Shown: piece by piece, positions 18,301 to 31,600 of the stretch
How positions within the stretch are numbered: position 1 is the stretch's first letter
Layout: each line of letters begins with the position of its first letter
From: Octopus vulgaris
Taxonomy: Eukaryota
DNA length: 64,000 nt
NCBI GenBank assembly: GCA_951406725.2
Contig: OX597821.1
Coordinates: forward strand, 63,550,001-63,614,000
Direction: 5' to 3'
Notes under the pieces: generated by a model
Told to the model about the DNA's origin: nothing
Database searches by the model: none
What the model saw: only the letters and a program-made list of their open reading frames with translations
Position numbers and translations under genes: made by a program

Positions 18301-18485
18301 TATATAATATTATTATATATAAAAACCACTATTTTGCAAAACAAACAAGGAAAGACTTAATCAATACATAAAATTTTAATAAAAAGTCAAAATAACCGCC
18401 ACTACAATTGTTTCTTGTCCTGATCGACAATCTTCAGGTGGACTTCCAATCTAAAATATCAATATTTTAAAATATAAAAATAATA
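18301..18485 (-). repeat. Inverted partial pLTR at the PLE 5' end
   Basis: Reverse complement of ~20002-20186 and ~26840-27024. Confidence 0.92.
18399..18441 (-). ncRNA. Minimal type I hammerhead ribozyme (inverted copy)
   Basis: Reverse complement: ccac CTGAAGA ttgtc-gatcag-gacaa GAAA caattg TA gtgg. Confidence 0.85.
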
Positions 18486-20266
18486 TGAGGCTTATATGTA
18501 CTTGTGGGTGTGTGTGAGTGGGGTGGGTGTTTGTATTTGTTATGGGTGTGTGGTTTACGTGTGTGTATTTGTGTGTGAATGTATAGGTTAAAGGGATTGC
18601 TATATAAGTATGTTGTAAGGTTTAGTAAAGGGAGGTTTTATCATTTATGTTTTTATGAGTTTTAATTTATCATGGTAGTTTTATTAAAGAATCCATTCAT
18701 AATTTTTTTGAATAATGTTAGTTTACCGCGTGAATATAATTTTTAATTCCATTTATTCTATTTCTCCATTCATAATTTTAAATGACGTTTGCTTCCATAG
18801 CGCGTATTCTTTTTATACATAAGTTATGTTCCTATGGTAACGTAATTTTGGTTTGATGCTTTTAACGGCTTAGAATTTAATTTCACTTCATAATTTGAAA
18901 CTGACTTGAAAGTATGTATATTATTTCTCCTTATGTCATATTGTTATTTTTGATATTCTGGTTACTTACGATGTATTTTATATATCGTATTATGTGTAAT
19001 AATGTTGTTTTTCTTTGGAGTGTTTATGTATGTGGGATTGTGTGTGAGTGTGTGCGTATTTTAGTTGTATAATTTATTTATCTGTATGAGTGTGGGTGTG
19101 TTAATATTGTTGTATATATCGAGTTTAGTGAGTATGTATATGTATATGGTGTGTGTTTTACGTATGTATATTTGTGTGTGAATGTGTTTATGGGTTTGCT
19201 ATATAGGTTTGGGGATGTATGTGTTTATTTATCTGTGTGGGGTTGAGTGGGTTTTTGGAGTATATATTGAGGTTTATATGTATGTATAGGTATGTGTGAG
19301 TGAGGTGGGTATTTGTATATGTCGTGGGTGTGTGGTTTACGTGTGTGTATTTGTGTGTGAATGTTTAGGTTAGGGGGATTGCTATATAGGTATGTTATAG
19401 AGTTTAGTAAAGGGAGATTTTATCATTATATGTTTTTGTGAGTTTTGGTTTATCATGGTGGTTTTGTTAAGGAATTCGTAGTAATTTGTGTCTATTTGCG
19501 ATGTCTGTTGTTTTGTTACATTGTTTCATTCATAATTTTTAAGTAATGTTCGTTTTACCAAGTGAATATAATTTTTAATTCCATTTATTCCATTTCTCCA
19601 TTCATAATTTTAAATGATGTCCGTTTCTAGAGCGAGAATGTGGGTTGTATGTGTGTGTGAGGGAGTATGAATAAGTATTGTGTTGAAGTATTTGGCTATT
19701 TTATTTATTTATCGTTGCCTAGACGTTTTTATGTGTATGTATAGGGATATATATATAGGTGTGTGATTTAGTGTATGTATTTAGATATGGTTATATATAA
19801 TTAGTTATATGTGTATGGGTGTATATATAGTTTATTTTTTGTTCTGTTTTATATTTTATATTTTATATTTTATATTTAATTGTTGATAGGTTTATTTTAG
19901 TTTATATATTGTTTATATATTGATTATATATGGATTATATATAGGTTATATATAGATTATATATTTATATTTTTTCATTAATACTTTAATTATTTTAAAA
20001 TTATTATTTTTATATTTTAAAATATTGATATTTTAGATTGGAAGTCCACCTGAAGATTGTCGTTCAGGACAAGAAACAATTGTAGTGGCGGTTATTTTGA
20101 CTTTTTATTAAAATTTTATGTATTGATTAAGTCTTTCCTTGTTTGTTTTGCAAAATAGTGGTTTTGTCTCTAATAATATTATATAATATTTTACTATAAA
20201 ATTGGATTTAATCCTAAATCTGATTTTTTCCCTGTAAATTTGGATTTATTCCCTAATATTTATTAT
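18486..20266 (+). repeat. 5' pseudo-LTR, 1781 bp
   Basis: Direct repeat of 25324-27104 at constant offset 6838; roughly a dozen substitutions seen by eye. Confidence 0.95.
20046..20088 (+). ncRNA. Minimal type I hammerhead ribozyme
   Basis: Stem I ccac/gtgg, core CTGAAGA, stem II ttgtc/gacaa, GAAA, palindromic stem III caattg, cleavage site GUA; this is the PLE-type HHR that can work as a dimer. Confidence 0.88.
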
Positions 20267-20323
20267 TTTTATTTAATATTGATAATTTTGTATATTGAGT
20301 GTAATACCTCAATTTCGTAAATT

Positions 20324-22846
20324 ATGGATTTTACAGGTAAGGTAGAACCGCTGTTTTGGGATTCATCTTTGAAATATATTCCTATTCCTTCTAGAAAGGA
20401 ATTTATCTTGAAACTTGTTAATAATGTTAAAGATTTTATTTCTAGAATTAAATGGAAAGCTTTTTACTATAATTTTTATTTATTTAATGATATTGATAGT
20501 AGGAATGATAATTTTACCTCTAAATTCAAATCTAGAAAGGAACCTCCATTTAATAAAGAATTACAATTACTTGAAGATAGTATATGGAAGGTGGTAAAAA
20601 ATATTGAATTCCATAAATACCCAAATAGAAATAATGAATATTTAAGGAACTTAGCAATTAAAATTAAAGATATGAGAAATATGGATGGTATTATAGTACA
20701 ATCTGATAAAACAAGGAACCTATATAAATTAGATGTTAAATTATATGATAAACTATTAGGGAAAGAAATAATTAAAAAATATAAAATTGTTCCAGATGAT
20801 ATTCTTTATAATATTAATAAGGCCTCTAAATTAGTAATGTTAAAATATGAGTTGGATAATAAAACTGAACCTTATGTACCTTTGCACCCCAGAATTACTC
20901 TTAAAGACCATAAAGATAATTTTTATTCAGACCCTAAAGTTAGATTAATTTGCCCATGTAAATCGGACCTAGGTAAATTAAGTAAATTTATTTTAGATAA
21001 ATATATCGATAAGTTATATAAACTTAATTATTTAAAATTATGGTTTAGTAATAACAATACATTGAAATGGTTTAATAATATTAAAGATAAAAATCGTTAT
21101 AAATTTATTCAAATAGATATAGATAATTATTATTCTTCTATTAATGAAATTGTGTTTAATAAAGCGCTTATTTTCGCAATGAATAAAGTGGGTATGTCAC
21201 GGGAAGAAATTAATGTAATTAAAATGGCTAGGAAATCGCAAATTATTAAATATAAAAATAAATTATGGGCTAGGAATGATACTAGGGATTGTTTTGATAT
21301 ACCTATGGGAGCACCAGATTCTGCACAGGCTACTGATTTAGTAGGTATTTTTCTTTTATCTGAACTCCAATTAGAAAATCTTAAGATAGAGGGTGGCTTA
21401 TATAGAGACGATCTTCTACTAGTTACAAAGAATTGTAATAATAGGAATCTAGAAGTATATAAGAAAAAACTATATAGTTTCTTTAAAAGATATGGTTTAA
21501 GTATTACTATATATAAGGAGAATTATAATGTTAATTACTTAGATGTTAATTTTAATCTTATTACTGGTAAAACACAACCATATCATAAACTTAATGAGAA
21601 CCTTAGATATATAAATGTTAATAGTAATCACCCATTTTCTATTAAAAAATCGTTGATTAATAATATAAGTAAACGTATTTCATTACTCTCTTATGATATA
21701 GAGATTTTTAATAAACATGCTAATTATTATAATGAGGCCCTTAGAGGGGCAGGTTATAATAGGAATATTAAATTTTATAATATTAGTGATAAAGATTTAA
21801 ATGATAATTTTCGAGATACTTCTAATTATAATTATAATTTTGTTAGGTTTAGTGGTAAAAAAAATAATAGATATTATAAAAATAATAAAAATGATAAAAA
21901 TATAAATAAGAATAATAATAATAATAATAAAAATAATAATAATAATAATACAAATAAGAATAATAAAAATAAAAATAAATTTAATAATTATTATAATAAT
22001 TATATTGATAAAATTAATAATATTAATAATTCCTTAAATGCTGTACATAGATATAATTCTGATAATAATTTTAATAAAATAAAGAATTATAAATATATTT
22101 ATAATAATGATAATAATAATAAGGTTAATAAGAATAAAATTTGGTTAATAGTTCCTTATGGAGATCAAGTAAAAACGAATATTATTAAAGAGATTTTAGA
22201 TGTTATAGAACTATTTATTAGAGATAATCGTAAATATAGAAACATTTTCTCTATTAATAATTTTGGAGTAGGTTATTCTACCACTAATAATGTAGGTAAC
22301 ATTATTTCTTCATTTAATAAATATAAACTGAATAATTTTTATAAAAAGAAATTATTTGATAATAATATTAATAATGTTAAGACTTATATTAATTGTACAT
22401 GTAGAGATAAATCTAATTGTATATTAAATAATAATTGTGGTATTAACGATGTAGTGTATAAATGTATAGTTACATTACATGATAATAACTTTAAGAATAA
22501 TAATTACCCAAAAGCGGTTTATATAGGTTCTACTTCCTCAAAAATAAAATTAAGAATCGCACAACATATGAATTCTTTTAAAAATAAAAACTTAATCAAC
22601 TCAACCCGACTTAGTAAGTACATTTGGAGTCTTAAATCACTAAATATTAATTATAGTTTAATTTGGGAAATAATTTGTAAATCTAAATCATATACTATAG
22701 GAGCTAATTGTTGTTATTTATGCTCTAATGAGTTTAAAGAAATTTTATTTTATAAGTATGATAATTTACTTAATACTGGTGAAGAGCGCAAAATAAAATG
22801 CAGACATAAGTTACTTTACCTATATAATAAGTTTCATGATAAATAG
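20324..22846 (+). CDS. PLE reverse transcriptase + C-terminal GIY-YIG endonuclease (840 aa)
   Basis: RT motifs SDKTRN, KDHK, PKVRLI, IDIDNYYSSI, DIPMGAPDS, GLYRDD, NYLDVNF, YINVNSNHP. Asn-rich insertion, then CxCx5C (CTCRDKSNC), then endonuclease VVY...VYIGST..KLRIAQH...CYLC.NE...LLN...KCRH. Confidence 0.95.
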   Translation: MDFTGKVEPLFWDSSLKYIPIPSRKEFILKLVNNVKDFISRIKWKAFYYNFYLFNDIDSRNDNFTSKFKSRKEPPFNKELQLLEDSIWKVVKNIEFHKYPNRNNEYLRNLAIKIKDMRNMDGIIVQSDKTRNLYKLDVKLYDKLLGKEIIKKYKIVPDDILYNINKASKLVMLKYELDNKTEPYVPLHPRITLKDHKDNFYSDPKVRLICPCKSDLGKLSKFILDKYIDKLYKLNYLKLWFSNNNTLKWFNNIKDKNRYKFIQIDIDNYYSSINEIVFNKALIFAMNKVGMSREEINVIKMARKSQIIKYKNKLWARNDTRDCFDIPMGAPDSAQATDLVGIFLLSELQLENLKIEGGLYRDDLLLVTKNCNNRNLEVYKKKLYSFFKRYGLSITIYKENYNVNYLDVNFNLITGKTQPYHKLNENLRYINVNSNHPFSIKKSLINNISKRISLLSYDIEIFNKHANYYNEALRGAGYNRNIKFYNISDKDLNDNFRDTSNYNYNFVRFSGKKNNRYYKNNKNDKNINKNNNNNNKNNNNNNTNKNNKNKNKFNNYYNNYIDKINNINNSLNAVHRYNSDNNFNKIKNYKYIYNNDNNNKVNKNKIWLIVPYGDQVKTNIIKEILDVIELFIRDNRKYRNIFSINNFGVGYSTTNNVGNIISSFNKYKLNNFYKKKLFDNNINNVKTYINCTCRDKSNCILNNNCGINDVVYKCIVTLHDNNFKNNNYPKAVYIGSTSSKIKLRIAQHMNSFKNKNLINSTRLSKYIWSLKSLNINYSLIWEIICKSKSYTIGANCCYLCSNEFKEILFYKYDNLLNTGEERKIKCRHKLLYLYNKFHDK

Positions 22847-24267
22847 CATTAATAGTTCCCTATTAGGTTACTTTAGTTTAGTTTAATTTAGTTTAGATAA
22901 TTATATATATTTGGTTATGTAGTCTAGGCTTTAATTATAGTTAGTCTTTATTGATATTTCTTTGTTTTAATTAGTTCATTTTTAATGTATATTAATATAA
23001 CAGTTTATGGTACGTTAAAACTTTAATAATTTATATTAGATTTTTTTATTTTCTTTAATTATATATATATTTTTTTAATTTTATTTTATTATGTATTTTT
23101 ATTATGCATTTGTTATATGTATATTGGAGGATATATTTATTTGGTTGATGGGTGTTATTTAGTGGTGTATATATTGAGTTTTGTATGTATGTATGAATGT
23201 TTACGATCCCTTTGTTTTTTATTTGGTATGTTGAATTGACAGATTTTATTTGGGTATTGTCTGTTATAATAAAGTACACACACCCATAACAAATACAAGT
23301 GCCCACCTCATTCACACGTACCTGGAATTACATATAAACCTCAACATATACACCAAAAAACCACTCCCACCCCACACGGACAAATAAACACATACATCCC
23401 CAAAAATGGGCGCAATCCCACTCACACCAATCATACATGTATACAATTACACACACAAGAACAATACATAACTAACCCAAATATACAGAACATACTACAA
23501 ATCACCAACAAACCACCATCACAAATGAAACCCACACCCATACAATGACAAAACTCCCCCCTCCATACCCAATTACACCCACATAGCAATCCCCATATAT
23601 TCATCCATACACAAACACACATACGCAAAACACACACAAACAACACATACGTACAACCCCCCAAACACACTCATATACATACGTATCAAACTCGACATCC
23701 ACAACAATACGCTCACACCCACTCACACCCAGATAAACAAACTACACAACCAAAAAACGCAAACACACACGTGTGCGTATTTTAATTGTGCAATTCACCC
23801 ATCCGCATGAATGCGGGCGCGAACACACCGTTGCACATATTGAGCCCAACAAGCATGCACATGTACATGTGAGGGGGTACACGCACATGCCGTGCGCGTA
23901 TACCCCCCGCACTTATACCCGTGCGTGAATATACACATGGAGACTACCACACAGGTACAAACGTGCATAGCAAAGGGAGCCCCATCACTACACTCAATGC
24001 ATACTCTCACCCATCCGCACGGATGTAGAAGCGAATCACCGGTGCATATATTGAGGCTCATACGTAGCACTATGGAGGCGTACGTCATTAAAATTATGAA
24101 TGGAATAAATGGAATTGGGAATTGTAACCGGGTGGTAGGCTAGCGTTACTTGAAATTGGGAATGGAATAATGTGGTGAAATGGCAGACGTCGGGAGTAGA
24201 CGTGGATTGCTACAAATTGTTTGTTAGAACTACCAAGATAAACTAAAACTCATAAATACATATAGTA

Positions 24268-25310
24268 ATTTATCATGGTAGTTTTATTAAAGAATCCATT
24301 CATAATTTTTTTAAGTAGTGTTGGTTTGCCGCGTGAATAGAGTTTTTAATTCCATTTATTCTATTTCTCCATTCATAATTTTAAATGATGTTTGCTTCCA
24401 TAGCGCGTATTCTTTTTATACATAAGTTATGTTCCTATGGTAACGTGATTTTGGTTTGATTTTTTTAACGGCTTAGAATTTAATTTCACTTCATAATTTG
24501 AAAGTGACTTGAAAGTATGTATATTATTTCTCCTTATGTCATATTGTTATTTTTGATATTCTGGTTAATTACGATGTATTTTATATATCGTTTTATGTGT
24601 AATAATGTTGTTTTTCTTTGGAGTGTTTATGTATGTGAGATTGTGTGTGAGTGTGTGCGTATTTTAGTTGTATAATTTATTTATCTGTATGAGTGTGGGT
24701 GTGTAAATATTGTTGTATATATCGAGTTTAGTGAGTATGTATATGCGTATATGTGAGGGAGTATATGTATATGTTGTGTGAATGTGTTTTACGTATGTAT
24801 ATTTGTGTGTGAATGTGTATATGGGTTTGTTATATAGGTTTGGGGATGTATGTGTTAATTTGTCTGTGTGGGGAGGGAGTGGGTTCTTGGTGTATATTGA
24901 GGTTTATACGTTAGTATAGGTATGTGTGAGTGAGGTGGGTATTTGTATAAGTAGTGGGTCTGTGGTTTACGTGTGTGTATTTGTGTGTGAACGTTTAGGT
25001 TAGGGGGATTGCTATTTAGGTTTGTTATAGAGTTTAGCAAAGGGAGATTTTATCATTATATGTTTTTGTGAGTTTTGGTTTATCATGGTAGTTTTGTTAA
25101 GGAATTCGTAGTAATTTGTCTATTTACGATGTTTGTTGTTTTGTTACATTGTTTCATTCATAATTTTTGAGTGGTGTTCGTTTTACCACTTGAATATTAT
25201 TTTTAATTCCATTTATTCCATTTCTCCATTCATAATTTTAAAAGATGTTCGTTTCCAGAGCGGGAATACTTTTTATACATATGTTAGGTTCCTTGGTAAC
25301 GTAATTTTGT
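24268..25310 (+). repeat. Additional tandem copy of pLTR-internal units in the PLE 3' UTR
   Basis: 24268-25270 resembles 25503-26475 and 18665-19635. A ~360-400 bp subrepeat starts at 18486, 19268, 24898, 25324 and 26106. Confidence 0.85.
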
Positions 25311-25323
25311 TTGGTGTATATGT

Positions 25324-27104
25324 TGAGGCTTATATGTACTTGTGGGTGTGTGTGAGTGGGGTGGGTGTTTGTATTTGTTATGGGTGTGTGGTTTACGTGT
25401 GTGTATTTGTGTGTGAATGTATAGGTTAAAGGGATTGCTATATAAGTATGTTATAGGGTTTAGTAAAGGGAGGTTTTATCATTTATGTTTTTATGAGTTT
25501 TGATTTATCATGGTAGTTTTATTAAAGAATCCATTCATAATTTTTTTAAATAATGTTAGTTTACCGCGTGAATATAATTTTTAATTCCATTTATTCTATT
25601 TCTCCATTCATAATTTTAAATGACGTTTGCTTCCATAGCGCGTATTCTTTTTATACATAAGTTATGTTCCTATGGTAACGTAATTTTGGTTTGATGCTTT
25701 TAACGGCTTAGAATTTAATTTCACTTCATAATTTGAAACTGACTTGAAAGTATGTATATTATTTCTCCTTATGTCATATTGTTATTTTTGATATTCTGGT
25801 TACTTACGATGTATTTTATATATCGTTTTATGTGTAATAATGTTGTTTTTCTTTGGAGTGTTTATGTATGTGGGATTGTGTGTGAGTGTGTGCGTATTTT
25901 AGTTGTATAATTTATTTATCTGTATGAGTGTGGGTGTGTTAATATTGTTGTATATATCGAGTTTAGTGAGTATGTATATGTATATGGTGTGTGTTTTACG
26001 TATGTATATTTGTGTGTGAATGTGTTTATGGGTTTGCTATATAGGTTTGGGGATGTATGTGTTTATTTATCTGTGTGGGGTTGAGTGGGTTTTTGGAGTA
26101 TATATTGAGGTTTATATGTATGTATAGGTATGTGTGAGTGAGGTGGGTATTTGTATATGTCGTGGGTGTGTGGTTTACGTGTGTGTATTTGTGTGTGAAT
26201 GTTTAGGTTAGGGGGATTGCTATATAGGTATGTTATAGAGTTTAGTAAAGGGAGATTTTATCATTATATGTTTTTGTGAGTTTTGGTTTATCATGGTGGT
26301 TTTGTTAAGGAATTCGTAGTAATTTGTGTCTATTTGCGATGTCTGTTGTTTTGTTACATTGTTTCATTCATAATTTTTAAGTAATGTTCGTTTTACCAAG
26401 TGAATATAATTTTTAATTCCATTTATACCATTTCTCCATTCATAATTTTAAATGATGTCCGTTTCTAGAGCGGGAATGTGGGTTGTATGTGTGTGTGTGG
26501 GAGTATGAATAAGTATTGTGTTGAAGTATTTGGCTATTTTATTTATTTATCGTTGCCTAGACGTTTTTATGTGTATGTATACGGATATATATATAGGTGT
26601 GTGATTTAGTGTATGTATTTAGATATGGTTATATATAATTAGTTATATGTGTATGGGTGTATATATAGTTTATTTTTTATTCTGTTTTATATTTTATATT
26701 TTATATTTTATATTTAATTGTTGATAGGTTTATTTTAGTTTATATATTGTTTATATATTGATTATATATGGATTATATATAGGTTATATATAGATTATAT
26801 ATTTATATTTTTTCATTAATACTTTAATTATTTTAAAATTATTATTTTTATATTTTAAAATATTGATATTTTAGATTGGAAGTCCACCTGAAGATTGTCG
26901 ATCAGGACAAGAAACAATTGTAGTGGCGGTTATTTTGACTTTTTATTAAAATTTTATGTATTGATTAAGTCTTTCCTTGTTTGTTTTGCAAAATAGTGGT
27001 TTTGTCTCTAATAATATTATATAATATTTTACTATAAAATTGGATTTAATCCTAAATCTGATTTTTTCCCTGTAAATTTGGATTTATTCCCTAATATTTA
27101 TTAT
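25324..27104 (+). repeat. 3' pseudo-LTR, 1781 bp
   Basis: Direct repeat of 18486-20266; ends at TA-rich sequence. Confidence 0.95.
26884..26926 (+). ncRNA. Minimal type I hammerhead ribozyme
   Basis: ccac CTGAAGA ttgtc-gatcag-gacaa GAAA caattg TA gtgg. Confidence 0.88.
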
Positions 27105-27464
27105 ATATTTATATATATATATATATACATGCATACATGTACATATACACACATATTTATATATATTTATATTTATATATGTATGCATGTGTTTGCAAAC
27201 CACACTCAAGCTTCAGTTTCCACTCATCGTTGGAGAATTTGGGATACTTTGGATAATATCGGAATTGTAAATTACCTAACCGCAGAGAACTTACAACCAG
27301 CTGTCACCGTTACGTCGTTCTGTCGCGCCAATTTTTAGTATGCTCCTCCTTGCTATGCCTTTTATTTTTACGGATCTTTTGTATTGAATACCATATATAT
27401 TTCTATATACATATGCACAGACACACATAAACAAGTACACACACACACACACACATTAGCCACT

Positions 27465-27630: not shown

Positions 27631-27640
27631 TATATATATA

Positions 27641-28252
27641 TAAAAGAAGTTTGAAAACGCCACTACATAAGATAAATTTTAATTTTTTTTAGAGATGTTA
27701 TATGTTTCGGTTCTTCTTGTATAAACGAACCTTATCAAAAATATTTTAAAAAGTTAAGTGTAATAAAAAACGTTCTTAATTGTTTCTTACTAGTCTCAAC
27801 AGAGTCAACGTGGTGGTGTTATGTGGGGGCGGAGCATAATGCATTTCTTGTGCGTTGACTAGTTTCGATGGCTGTACTTGCTGCTACTAGTACGGCCAAT
27901 GAACTGCTGCTACAACTCCAACCACCACCACCACCACCACCACCACGGTCACTACCACTACGATTAACAGTCACTGCTACTACTGCTATTTCGGCCGCTG
28001 GTCATTTACAAAATTACAGCCAACGAATCTAGTCAACGCACAAGACAGTCATTATGCCCCCCCCCCCCCCACATAACACGACCACATGGACTCTGTTGAG
28101 ACTAGAAAGGAACAATGAACAACTTTTTATTACACTTATCGTTTTAAAAATATTTTTGATAAGGTTCGTTTTTTGAAGAAGAACCGAAACGTAAAATCTT
28201 TAAGAAAATTAAAATTTATCTTATATAGTGGCGTTTTCAAACTTCTTTTTTA
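27641..28252. mobile_element. Fold-back insert with ~235 bp diverged arms and an HHR variant
   Basis: Arms 27641-27876 / 28015-28252; TA-rich flanks. Confidence 0.75.
28152..28197 (+). ncRNA. Hammerhead-like motif with U3-A8 core (UUGAUAA)
   Basis: attt TTGATAA ggttc...gaacc GAAA cg TA aaat; the same core is in the inverted arm (~27695-27742). Confidence 0.6.
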
Positions 28253-28261
28253 TAAATATAT

Positions 28262-28656: not shown

Positions 28657-31600
28657 CAGGGGCGTGCACTCTCAGCAATGCAAGGTATGCGCTGCATGCC
28701 TTCCTTGTTTCAAAGAAAATACGTCCAGTTGTTTTAGAAATATTGTCTCCACTTCGTACATCTGCTTTGATAAATGCTTTTAGAAGATCGCATGATACAC
28801 ACTCCCTCTCTGTCTGTATTAGTTTGTCCTTCCTTCCTCTCTCTCTCTCTCTTTCTATCTTAGTGACTCGATAAATTTATCGCTTGTCATGCGTTGGGAA
28901 GACAGCATGAGTCCCTTCTCTCTGTCTTTGATAGTTTGTCCCTTCTCCCTCTTTCTTTGTTTAAAAGATATACTACGAGGAATGGTCACCCCCTTCTCTC
29001 TCAGCGATTCGACAAATTCAGTTTGGCGTGTCATGCTGTGCTTAGATCGCATATTACGCCTCTGGCTATTTTGACCGGAACACGAGCCGTCCCATAATTC
29101 TTGTTTTAGCCAGCTGAAATGTTGGAATAGCCTTCGCATGTAAGTTTGAAATTTTTTATCCAAAACATCCGTTTGCACTATCATATTTTTAGAAAGTTTT
29201 GAAAGCAAAAATATCTACATTATATTTCTTATTTCAGAAATAGCTAATTAATCTTAAATTAATTTAACAAAGGGTATTTTTTCCGTTTTGTTGAAATTGA
29301 CTTAAAATTTACGCCGGCGCTTCCACGTGGGTCCTTAAATAAGAGCAGCCTTTTTAAAAATGAGTGAAATGTGTGCTATAAACGATATTTTGAGAACTAG
29401 TTTTTCTAAAAGGGACTTCGATGGGAAAAAATTAATTATAAATCGCGGGAGACCAACACCGAATTTACCTAATTTGCGAAGCTACAACAAGAAATTCACG
29501 AGACAATTTCAGGTTAATTCGTATGAAAAGAAGAAATGGTTAACTGGAAGTGTTGCTCTTAATAAATTATTCTGTTGGCCGTGTTTACTTTTTGGTTTAG
29601 AAAAAAATGTTTGGAATGATAAAGGCTATGATGATTTAAATAATTTACATATGGCTATGCTAAAGCACGAGCGTTCTCAAAGGCATATAAAATGTTTGAT
29701 AGACCTTAAAATATTCGGGAATGTTCGCATAGACTTACAATTAGATGCACGTAAAAATCAAAGCATACAACAGCATAATGAGAAAGTTCGACGAAACAGA
29801 TCCATTCTGCAACGATTGATCGATGTTGTTATTTTTAGGCCTCCAGGAATTATCGTTTCGGGGTCATTTTGAATCTGAAGGCTCTAATAATCGGGGAAAT
29901 TATAAAGAACTCGTTTATTTGATCAGTAAGTATGACAAACAAATGGAAAGTCATTTAGATACAGCTTCTATCTTCACTGGTCTGTCGAACAGAATTCAAA
30001 ATGACTTGATCGAAGCAATTCATAAAGTTATGTTGAATGAGATGCAGAAGGAAATTGACCAAGCTAAGTTTGTTTCTATTCTTGTTGATGAGATATCTGA
30101 TGTCTCAGCATCTTCACAATTGTCAACAGTTTTACGTTATGTTACAGAAGACTGTGTGACGAAAGAACGATTTATCGGTTTTAGTGATGTTAGTGCAGAT
30201 CGATCTGCAAATGCTTTATCTGAACATGTTTTTAAATGCATTGAGACGTGGGAATGTGGAAACAAATTGATTGCGCAGACATATGATGGTGCCGCTACAA
30301 TGGCAGGACAACTAAATGGGTTACAGGCAAAAGTAAGAAAGAAATATGAATGTGCGATCTTTATTCATTGTTGTGCCCATATCCTAAATTTAGTTCTTTC
30401 ACAATCATGCTCTGCTATGAAAGAATGCAAGATATTTTTTTCTACAATAAATGGACTCGGTACATTTTTTACGAAATCACCGAAAAGGACTAATGCATTA
30501 GATAATATTGTTAAAAAAAGATTTCCGAAAGCAACAGCAACTAGATGGAATTACTCCTCACGTCTTATTATTACCACAAAGGAAAATTATAATTTCATAA
30601 TCAGCCTTTTTGAACACATCATTGAAAATCCTGAAGCATGGGATGAGACCACCATAAATTCAGCAATTGGATTCTTACACATTTTAAAAGCTCCTGATTT
30701 CTTATTTTTGTTAGAGGTATTCAGTGACATTTTTTCTTTTACTGACGTCTTATTTAACATACTCCAGAGTAAAAGTCATGACATAGTGTATTGTAAACAG
30801 CAAATAGATAAAACTAGAACTGTACTCGAAAACAAACTTGATAATTTTTCAGTCTTTTATGATAGGTTAGGGGAAAAATATGGAGTCGATGCAGGAATCG
30901 GAATTCAGAGATCCAAGAATATATCTATTGATCCCCAACGACATTATAGAACGCTTTATAACAAAATTATAAGTACAATAGTTGACCAAATAAAAGCACG
31001 ATATTCATCCTTAGAAGTGTTTAAATTCATGGAACTTTTGAATTTCAACAAAGTTGATGAGTATTGCAAACAATTTCCTGTGGACTCTTTAGATTCTTTA
31101 AGAACAACTTATGGCAGATTTTTTGATGTAATACGATTACAAAGTGAGCTCAATGTGATGTATTCAATGAAAGATTTTAAAAAACCAAGTGTAAGTCATT
31201 TAATGAGTTACATTAACAGCACTGATCTTGTTGAAGCTATGCCAGAACTCTTCAATCTGTGCAAGTTGATTTTGACAATTCCGTCTACCACTGCTTCTGT
31301 AGAGCGATCCTTTTCTGCATTAAGTAGAATTAAAACATACCAAAGAAATGCGACAGGAGAAAGAAGACTGTCTAGGTTAGCACTAATGTCAATTGAAAAA
31401 GATTTATTACAAGAATTGATGAAAAGAGAAGATTTCTATGAAAATGTGATAGATATATTTGCCCAGAAAGATCGAAGAATTGAATTAATTTATAAATGAG
31501 CTAAGTAACATTTTAAAACATTAAAAAAATATATATTAAAGAGCATATATTACAGGTTTTGCTTAGTGTTTGTTATAACGTAAGGTTCGACCTTCTTACA

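What the first reader, a model, noticed from the sequence alone, without database searches (positions are those of the whole stretch)
24066..24345. Second hairpin next door carries A>G on the PLUS strand
Seen: 24066-24268 is an inverted copy of the pLTR unit with many A>G changes (aattaaaaatt>aattgggaatt, gacatcg>gacgtcg, cacaaattac>cgtggattgc) plus some C>T. Its adjacent forward partner has 5 A>G and 1 T>G within 24313-24342 relative to the otherwise near-identical copy at 25548, all with a 5' A or T neighbour. Inference: this is a separate editing episode on the sense RNA. Opposite polarity in adjacent blocks suggests repeated cycles of inversion, hairpin formation, editing and retrotransposition that build the UTR and relax its dsRNA.
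Basis: partly seen in the sequence, partly recalled or inferred. Interest (0 to 1): 0.75.

Follow-up and report, generated by a model that had tools for sequence, protein, structure and literature searches.

The report
RNA-editing layers in a jumping gene
The tail of a Penelope-type jumping gene carries two neighbouring layers of one-way A-to-G changes in its DNA, likely RNA edits by ADAR copied back into the genome, and its older relatives in the same genome show that the first layer was flipped over as a block before the second layer began and kept growing from copy to copy.

Summary
Confirmed, with corrections. Window 24067-24268 is an inverted unit in the 3' UTR of a Penelope-like element (18301-27123). 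Against the nearest precursor copy it shows 33 of 122 A>G and 0 of 41 C>T on the sense strand. The genome holds three stages, nested in a tree built from unedited regions: hairpin-less copies; copies with one sense hairpin (A>G 77-82 of 141 and 39-41 of 74-78, T>C 0-1) beside the still unedited unit; and the window's clade, where both were inverted together. The neighbouring T>C block is therefore that older sense-edited hairpin turned round (95 shared G sites, 4 discordant), not antisense editing. The second layer kept growing: 57 of 102 A sites vary among 56 copies, and A/G variation sits in predicted duplex arms (125/378 vs 12/508). ADAR is inferred: no RNA run was available and the neighbour motif is modest. 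This scan has noted the phenomenon on other DNA; I found no paper on it for Penelope elements.

The parts
18301..18485 (-). 5' inverted, truncated pLTR piece with a hammerhead-like motif (18403-18437)
   Evidence: 97-98% reverse match to 20002-20185 and 26840-27023; motif
18486..20284 (+). 5' pseudo-LTR, hammerhead-like motif at 20050-20084
   Evidence: 99% identical to 25324-27123
20324..22846 (+). Open 840-aa ORF, RT followed by GIY-YIG-type endonuclease, with an Asn-rich stretch; no A>G excess
   Evidence: A>G 4/882 vs outgroup
22847..23276 (+). UTR spacer shared with hairpin-less relatives up to 23271; no long inverted partner, no A>G excess
   Evidence: A>G 3/169; 0 internal-branch A>G, 103 A
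23277..24066 (-). Old hairpin H1 (apex 23770/23771), A>G-changed on the sense strand of a precursor subfamily, then inverted; reads T>C on the window plus strand
   Evidence: T>C 39/78 and 48/87 vs outgroup; 90-95% identical to the sense hairpin of L130-L135 with 89-95 shared G sites; folds on minus (-200.9) not plus (-78.4) for 23577-23965
24067..24268 (+). Block C, the finding: inverted UTR unit carrying the second, cumulative layer of sense-strand A>G
24268..24410 (+). Adjacent forward partner U1 (internally deleted unit); three family-wide A>G at 24318, 24328, 24342
   Evidence: 93-bp predicted stem 24067-24166 with 24406-24295, 18 G:U
24647..24964 (+). Forward G/T-rich repeats, present sense-strand partners of 23277-23403 and 23577-23768; 24641-24840 gains A>G
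   Evidence: fold; 13 internal-branch A>G in 24641-24840, 0 in 24841-25050
25052..25262 (+). Full-length forward unit U2, alternative 181-pair partner of block C, A>G 10/60
25324..27123 (+). 3' pseudo-LTR; holds unit copies at 25503-25645 and 26260-26477 (the latter with 10/60 A>G, 7 sites shared with U2) and a hammerhead-like motif at 26888-26922

Best explanation
Block 24067-24268 is the second of two layers of strand-specific A-to-G change in a Penelope-like element's 3' UTR, likely made by ADAR on fold-back sense RNA and likely fixed by the element's own reverse transcriptase. Steps: (1, shown) hairpin-less copies gained an inverted truncated copy, forming an ~430-bp hairpin whose two arms took ~55% A>G on the sense strand while the unit next to it stayed unchanged; (2, shown) unit and hairpin were copied together in inverted orientation into the UTR of the window's lineage, so the old changes now read T>C and the old hairpin no longer folds on the sense strand; (3, predicted fold, changes shown) the inverted unit now pairs with downstream forward units, and both sides gained sense-strand A>G: 16 sites fixed early, 57 more varying between copies, load rising from 32 to 52; (4, inferred) inosine is read as G at reverse transcription in the germline or early embryo; G:U pairs keep the hairpin, so it stays a substrate and further rounds of retrotransposition add further sites; (5, inferred) the inversions are the ordinary inverted 5'-truncated insertions of Penelope elements landing in or joined to their own UTR.
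For: Polarity by outgroup: A>G 29/102, T>C 1/57, G>A 2/23, C>T 0/26; by nearest precursors 30-33 of 120-122. Precursor stage: arms 77-82/141 and 39-41/74-78 A>G, T>C 0-1, adjacent unit 0-1/58-59, in 4 of 4 copies tested. Window T>C sites equal precursor G sites: 95 GG, 73 AA, 4 discordant for L132 and for L135. Tree on ORF end plus spacer nests stage 2 in stage 1 in stage 0 with support 99-100. Duplex confinement: A/G segregating 125/378 in inverted-repeat arms vs 12/508 outside, p=2e-38; internal-branch A>G 28 in the block vs 1 among 266 ORF A and 0 among 103 spacer A. Four young copies differ pairwise by 18-25 A/G in 203 nt but by 7-14 changes in ~1830 ORF nt. 5' G avoided in the block: 2/9 vs 71/93, p=0.002; 5' T/A favoured in the first layer, 96/155 vs 25/60, p=0.009; upstream G depletion is the shared ADAR trait in PMC5625713 (passages). 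Adenosine-deaminase (PF02137) matches at 4 places in the genome. Contigs of 4 other runs lie on the region, A>G being the commonest difference in each.
Against: No inosine or stranded RNA read was seen. The neighbour motif is uneven: 5' G effect p=0.13 in the first layer and 0.055 in the window's block alone, p=0.10 pooled over all plus-strand arms and reversed in the forward partners, 5/10 vs 30/93. A second sense-strand bias exists (C>T on internal branches, also outside duplexes and in the ORF), so the replication cycle has a strand-specific error source that ADAR does not explain. Region 23771-24060, predicted unpaired, still has 6 of 75 A/G sites, and 24841-25050, predicted paired, has no internal-branch A>G. 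The 56 copies include tandem and inverted duplicates from single loci and were picked as best matches, so counts are not independent.
Confidence: 0.87

Rival explanations
1. The T>C block next door was edited on an antisense transcript, so the two blocks record editing of both strands.
For: In the window alone the T>C block folds into a G:U-rich hairpin only on the minus strand.
Against: L130, L131, L132, L135 carry the same hairpin in sense orientation downstream of the ORF region with the same G sites (89-95 shared, 4-13 discordant), and the window's clade nests among them (L132 lacked the ORF part and was not in the tree). No T>C on internal branches in block C, 24641-24840 or U2.
Confidence: 0.03
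2. The element's reverse transcriptase misreads A as G when it passes through long stems; no deaminase is involved.
For: The family has another sense-strand bias, C>T on internal branches (ORF third positions 24 C>T for 40 C vs 9 G>A for 56 G; terminal branches 8 vs 10), so the replication cycle itself is asymmetric.
Against: About 55% of A changed in both arms with T>C 0-1 and other changes at background is far beyond polymerase error as I know it (own knowledge); 5' G avoidance; near-50% A>G in an inverted repeat is the pattern attributed to ADAR in avian retroviruses (PMC12925331, passage).
Confidence: 0.04
3. Ordinary mutation plus selection for G:U wobbles that keep the RNA fold but break the DNA palindrome or antisense duplex.
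For: Nearly all arm mismatches are G:U on the sense strand (172 G:T/T:G vs about 21 other mismatches in L132); C>T, which also makes G:U, varies at 10 of 24 C in block C.
Against: About 120 A>G arose on a branch of under 1% ORF/spacer divergence and are nearly the same in all four precursor copies; C>T in that layer is only 1-5 of 72-73; mutation supply cannot give this. Selection may still filter which edited RNAs survive.
Confidence: 0.03
4. A DNA-level process: APOBEC-like C-to-U on the cDNA (read backwards as A/G differences), GC-biased conversion in a palindrome, RIP-like mutation, or an assembly artefact.
For: A/G differences between copies run both ways relative to the window.
Against: Partners and outgroups show the ancestor had A (49 A/G columns face unanimous A, 4 face G); conversion and RIP would be strand-symmetric; the ORF is spared; the pattern is nested on a tree and present in contigs of other runs. 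ADAR acting on the DNA strand of the RNA:cDNA hybrid would give T>C on the sense strand and would not follow RNA stems.
Confidence: 0.02

Closest known systems
A-to-G hypermutated avian retroviruses (Rous-associated virus U3, avian leukosis virus inverted repeat; Felder 1994, Hajjar and Linial 1995; seen only as a passage and citations in PMC12925331)
   Same: Near 50% A>G in an inverted repeat of an RNA that is then reverse transcribed.
   Different: Single viral isolates; here a germline non-LTR-type element, a founder event inherited by a subfamily, a second layer after inversion, and continuing gain across dozens of copies.
APOBEC 'DNA editing' of LTR retrotransposons (PMC4866542, passages)
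   Same: Host deaminase marks fixed in new genomic copies, strand-biased, inflating apparent age and diversity.
   Different: G>A on the sense strand from C-to-U on cDNA, vertebrate LTR elements, not tied to RNA stems; invertebrates were the negative control. Here A>G on the sense strand, limited to duplex arms.
A-to-I hyper-editing of repeat transcripts, including lizard Penelope and very high levels in octopus (PMC5625713, passages)
   Same: Substrate class (long fold-backs of repeats), upstream G depletion.
   Different: Reported as RNA-versus-DNA mismatches; 'retrotranspos' and 'reverse transcri' do not occur in its main text. Here the changes stand in DNA.
Endonuclease-bearing Penelope-like elements with pLTRs, inverted 5'-truncated copies and minimal hammerheads (PMC8557442, PMC4209133, PMC11167929; passages)
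   Same: Single RT-EN ORF, direct pLTRs, adjacent inverted truncated copy, hammerhead-like motif in each pLTR, AT-rich target.
   Different: Those passages describe inverted copies as insertion by-products; here two became permanent parts of the transposing UTR and mutational hot spots.

Membership tests
EN+ Penelope-like element | Single ORF with RT then C-terminal GIY-YIG endonuclease | tested here: inconclusive
   840-aa open ORF; no Pfam or PDB hit; ESM Atlas neighbours at 0.95-0.98 carry HTH_animal, GIY-YIG, RVT_1 on part of their members; 39 homologs at E<1e-59, many with PF26215; RT- and GIY-YIG-like motifs recognised by eye from recalled consensus
EN+ Penelope-like element | Direct pseudo-LTRs flanking the ORF | tested here: met
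   18486-20284 and 25324-27123, 99%
EN+ Penelope-like element | Inverted 5'-truncated copy at the 5' end | tested here: met
   18301-18485; many family copies likewise
EN+ Penelope-like element | Minimal hammerhead motif in the pLTRs | tested here: met
   3 matches to a recalled core pattern, one per pLTR and one in the inverted piece, 0.20 expected; Rfam found no hammerhead; cleavage untested
EN+ Penelope-like element | RT phylogeny within a named PLE clade | not tested
   no tree against reference PLEs was built
ADAR hyper-editing product | A>G on one (the transcribed) strand only | tested here: met
   the strand is the ORF's sense strand, transcription itself not shown
ADAR hyper-editing product | Confined to long double-stranded regions, both arms | tested here: met
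   125/378 vs 12/508; both arms changed, adjacent unit spared; pairing is predicted
ADAR hyper-editing product | Depletion of G 5' of changed A | tested here: inconclusive
   p=0.002 for block C over the family, 0.13 for the first layer, 0.10 pooled, reversed in forward partners
ADAR hyper-editing product | Inosine in the RNA; dependence on ADAR | not testable with these tools
   only contigs, no run on record as RNA; deaminase-domain genes present at 4 places, not sorted into ADAR/ADAT/ADAD
APOBEC DNA-edited retroelement | G>A clusters on the sense strand | tested here: not met
   G>A 2/23 vs A>G 29/102

The most novel reading that the evidence does not exclude
ADAR is the main mutator of an active germline retrotransposon, marking its RNA at nearly every cycle, and the element lives with it: each self-inversion creates a perfect hairpin, editing turns it into a G:U rod that survives on the sense strand but no longer forms a perfect DNA palindrome or antisense duplex, and later inversion retires it. 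Together with a second sense-strand C>T process this writes the element's G/T-rich UTR and gives every copy a barcode from which germline ADAR activity and site preference can be read over evolutionary time.
Probability: 0.35. Interest if true: 0.85.

Novelty: new variant of a known kind. Interest (0 to 1): 0.72.

Why it matters
RNA editing is normally not inherited. Here a family that was recently transposing holds an ordered record of two editing layers, with unedited and half-way ancestors still in the genome, so polarity, order and duplex dependence can be read directly. It implies ADAR-type activity on retroelement RNA in cells that reach the next generation, gives a per-copy barcode for rebuilding how Penelope elements invert and template their insertions, and warns that divergence-based dating of such repeats is inflated about ten- to thirty-fold in hairpin arms (18-25 changes per 203 nt vs 7-14 per ~1830 nt). 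It also shows that opposite-strand editing signatures in a repeat need not mean antisense transcription.

Tried and rejected
No RNA holder listed; contigs laid from four runs cannot show strand or editing. Singleton counts against the column majority could not polarise the block because many sites are near saturation; outgroups replaced them. The 5' ORF row of the parsimony table came out empty for lack of coverage and was not used. Parts's output were cut from view. Pfam, PDB and Rfam gave nothing useful for the ORF or the hammerhead. The first neighbour test with window paralogs as ancestor was not significant (4/8 vs 57/77, p=0.21). Rejected: real C>T in the window's block, copy-specific A>G in 24313-24342, antisense editing of the neighbouring hairpin, destabilisation of the sense hairpin, APOBEC-type G>A. 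Literature searches listed no paper on A-to-I edits fixed in genomic Penelope or other endogenous retrotransposon copies; most hits were seen only as listings, subscription papers are not searched, Hajjar and Linial 1995 was not held, and no supplement was read, so absence from print is not established. A look-up of earlier findings by this sequence gave nothing.

Full report
Setting. The finding lies in the 3' UTR of an 8.8-kb element at 18301-27123: an inverted 5' piece, a 1.8-kb pseudo-LTR, an open 840-aa ORF, a 2.5-kb UTR and a second pseudo-LTR 99% identical to the first. A recalled hammerhead core pattern matches once in each pLTR and once in the inverted piece (3 found, 0.20 expected). 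Pfam, PDB and Rfam are silent; ESM Atlas neighbours carry GIY-YIG, HTH_animal and RVT_1 on part of their members. The architecture is that described for endonuclease-bearing Penelope-like elements (passages of PMC8557442, PMC4209133, PMC11167929). The genome is 2.8 Gb in 227 contigs, probably an octopus (inference from size, a partial hit and earlier AI notes). The family is large and young: each search scored only the best 40 of 558-1013 candidates, with ORF copies up to 99% identical.

Observation. Block 24067-24268 aligns to the reverse complement of the forward units with 31 A>G, 9 C>T, 3 G>A, 1 T>C in 213 columns. Paralogs cannot give direction, so I looked for outgroups. Copies L121 and L112 have the same ORF and UTR units but no inverted repeat in the UTR. 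Against L121 the block has A>G 29/102, T>C 1/57, G>A 2/23, C>T 0/26; the ORF has 4/882 and 3/724, the spacer 3/169 and 1/277. Of the six sites at 24315-24342, three are A>G fixed in 54-56 of 56 copies, one is an ancestral G, one is ambiguous and the T>G is private.

The two polarities. The neighbouring stretch 23456-24066 shows the reverse: T>C 39/78 and 48/87 with A>G 1/144 and 0/46. Searching with L121 revealed an intermediate subfamily. Of 20 stretches fetched, four (L130, L131, L132, L135) carry, in sense orientation after the normal UTR start, the unit followed by a long hairpin, and three more carry part of it. In the four, the 5' arm has 77-82 of 141 A>G, the 3' arm 39-41 of 74-78, T>C is 0-1, and the adjacent unit has 0-1 of 58-59. 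Window 23277-24269 is the inverted copy of exactly this stretch, less about 140 nt: the hairpin part is 90-95% identical, ancestral A sites read GG 95, AA 73, discordant 4 for L132 and L135, while the unit part differs by 30-33 of 120-122 new A>G on the window's plus strand. A tree of 24 selected copies on the ORF end and spacer, which contain none of the edited arms, places six hairpin-less copies at the base, then L130/L131, then L135 as sister of the window's clade (support 99, 100, 100). So the order is shown: no hairpin, first sense layer, block inversion, second sense layer. No antisense editing is needed.

The second layer kept growing. Among 56 aligned copies of the block (including the window and some duplicates within loci), 102 ancestral A sites split into 16 fixed G, 57 variable, 29 unchanged or changed once; T>C varies at 1 of 57, G>A at 2 of 22, C>T at 10 of 24; load runs from 32 (window) to 52 and rises along the ORF-tree ladder. 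Twelve of the 16 fixed sites lie in 24067-24170, the part predicted to pair with the adjacent partner, fitting one founder molecule changed on both arms; 36 of the 59 variable sites listed lie beyond 24170, the part that needs the longer partner U2. Four young copies differ pairwise by 18-25 A/G in the block but by 7-14 changes in about 1830 ORF bases. Parsimony on a 26-copy tree built without A/G columns puts 28 A>G and no T>C on internal branches in the block, 21 in 23576-23770, 13 in its partner 24641-24840, 9 in U2, against 1 among 266 ORF A and 0 among 103 spacer A.

Duplex dependence and folding. The plus-strand fold of 23200-25330 nests three long stems: 23282-23403 with 24959-24840, 23577-23768 with 24839-24651, 24067-24166 with 24406-24295. 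A/G variation occurs at 125 of 378 A sites in inverted-repeat arms and 12 of 508 outside (p=2e-38); T/C at 44 of 435 and 33 of 680, concentrated in the C-rich inverted stretch where it is C>T decay. The 24060-24420 hairpin folds at -138.2 kcal/mol, z -13.4. Putting 33 G back to A gives -124.3 on the plus strand and changes G:U pairs from 23 to 4; on the minus strand the values are -91.3 as is and -129.6 reverted; the block:U2 duplex goes from -206.4 reverted to -195.0 as is with 181 pairs in both. The first hairpin keeps 406 pairs with 166 G:U on its own sense strand (-543.9) and collapses on the other (-182.3); in the window 23577-23965 folds at -200.9 on minus and -78.4 on plus. Fixation as G therefore does not relax the edited strand; it swaps Watson-Crick for wobble pairs, which would keep the RNA a substrate, and inversion is what retires a hairpin.

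The enzyme. One-strand A>G in both arms of long stems at up to 55% of A is the ADAR pattern; PF02137 matches four places in the genome. Upstream G depletion, common to ADARs in PMC5625713 (passages), is seen in the block over the family (2/9 vs 71/93, p=0.002) and 5' T/A is favoured in the first layer (96/155 vs 25/60, p=0.009), but the 5' G test is not significant in the first layer (p=0.13) or pooled (p=0.10) and is reversed in the forward partners. No RNA evidence was obtainable. Contigs of four other runs cover the region with A>G as the commonest difference (20-30 places each), which speaks against an assembly artefact but not for editing as such. An unexplained sense-strand C>T bias on internal branches shows a second asymmetric source of change.

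Comparison. Closest are the A>G hypermutated avian retroviruses (seen only through a review passage) and APOBEC-edited LTR elements in vertebrates, where invertebrates served as negative control (PMC4866542 passages). Editing of Penelope transcripts is reported for lizard RNA. Eight searches listed no paper on such changes fixed in genomic Penelope copies; supplements and subscription papers were not seen. This scan has recorded the same phenomenon on other DNA of this and other genomes (unchecked AI notes, which also gave me the leads to the avian and APOBEC papers that I had partly recalled). What this case adds, on my own tests, is the three-stage series, the direct explanation of opposite polarity by inversion, and the measured continuing gain.

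Verdict. Real, well beyond chance, best explained as two successive layers of ADAR editing fixed by retrotransposition (0.87); new variant of a known kind; interest 0.72.

Noticed in passing
window 22850-25270 and ORF third positions, family copies: A second sense-strand asymmetry on internal (retrotransposing) branches: C>T 53 events for 336 C vs G>A 9 for 396 G in the UTR outside block C; ORF third positions 24 for 40 C vs 9 for 56 G; much weaker or absent on terminal branches (111/336 vs 69/396; 8/40 vs 10/56). Not tied to duplexes, low at CpC. Could be RT misincorporation or C-to-U deamination, and would explain the element's strong G>C skew.
   Followed up: partly
window 26260-26477 and 19422-19639: The pLTR's own unit copy shares 7 of 10 A>G sites with the UTR unit at 25052-25262, so edits were carried into the pLTRs by later duplication.
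   Followed up: partly
window 20050-20084, 26888-26922, 18403-18437: Minimal hammerhead-like motif with a palindromic stem III in each pLTR and in the inverted 5' piece; not detected by Rfam.
   Followed up: partly
window 21790-22130: In-frame Asn/Lys-rich low-complexity expansion between RT and endonuclease regions of the ORF; the ORF is 20-24% GC.
   Followed up: no
window 29339-31499: hAT-type transposase in two overlapping frames (DUF4371 and Dimer_Tnp_hAT hits), with an inverted repeat 27631-27879 / 28012-28260 upstream.
   Followed up: no
L115, L116, L118, L120 (UTRs): A sister lineage of the same ORF family has a differently built UTR of direct repeats only, diverging at window 22986; L118 and L116 carry young near-perfect inversions.
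   Followed up: no
window vs family, 24067-24268: The window's copy is the least changed of 56 (32 G vs up to 52) and sits in the basal part of its clade, with an open ORF.
   Followed up: yes
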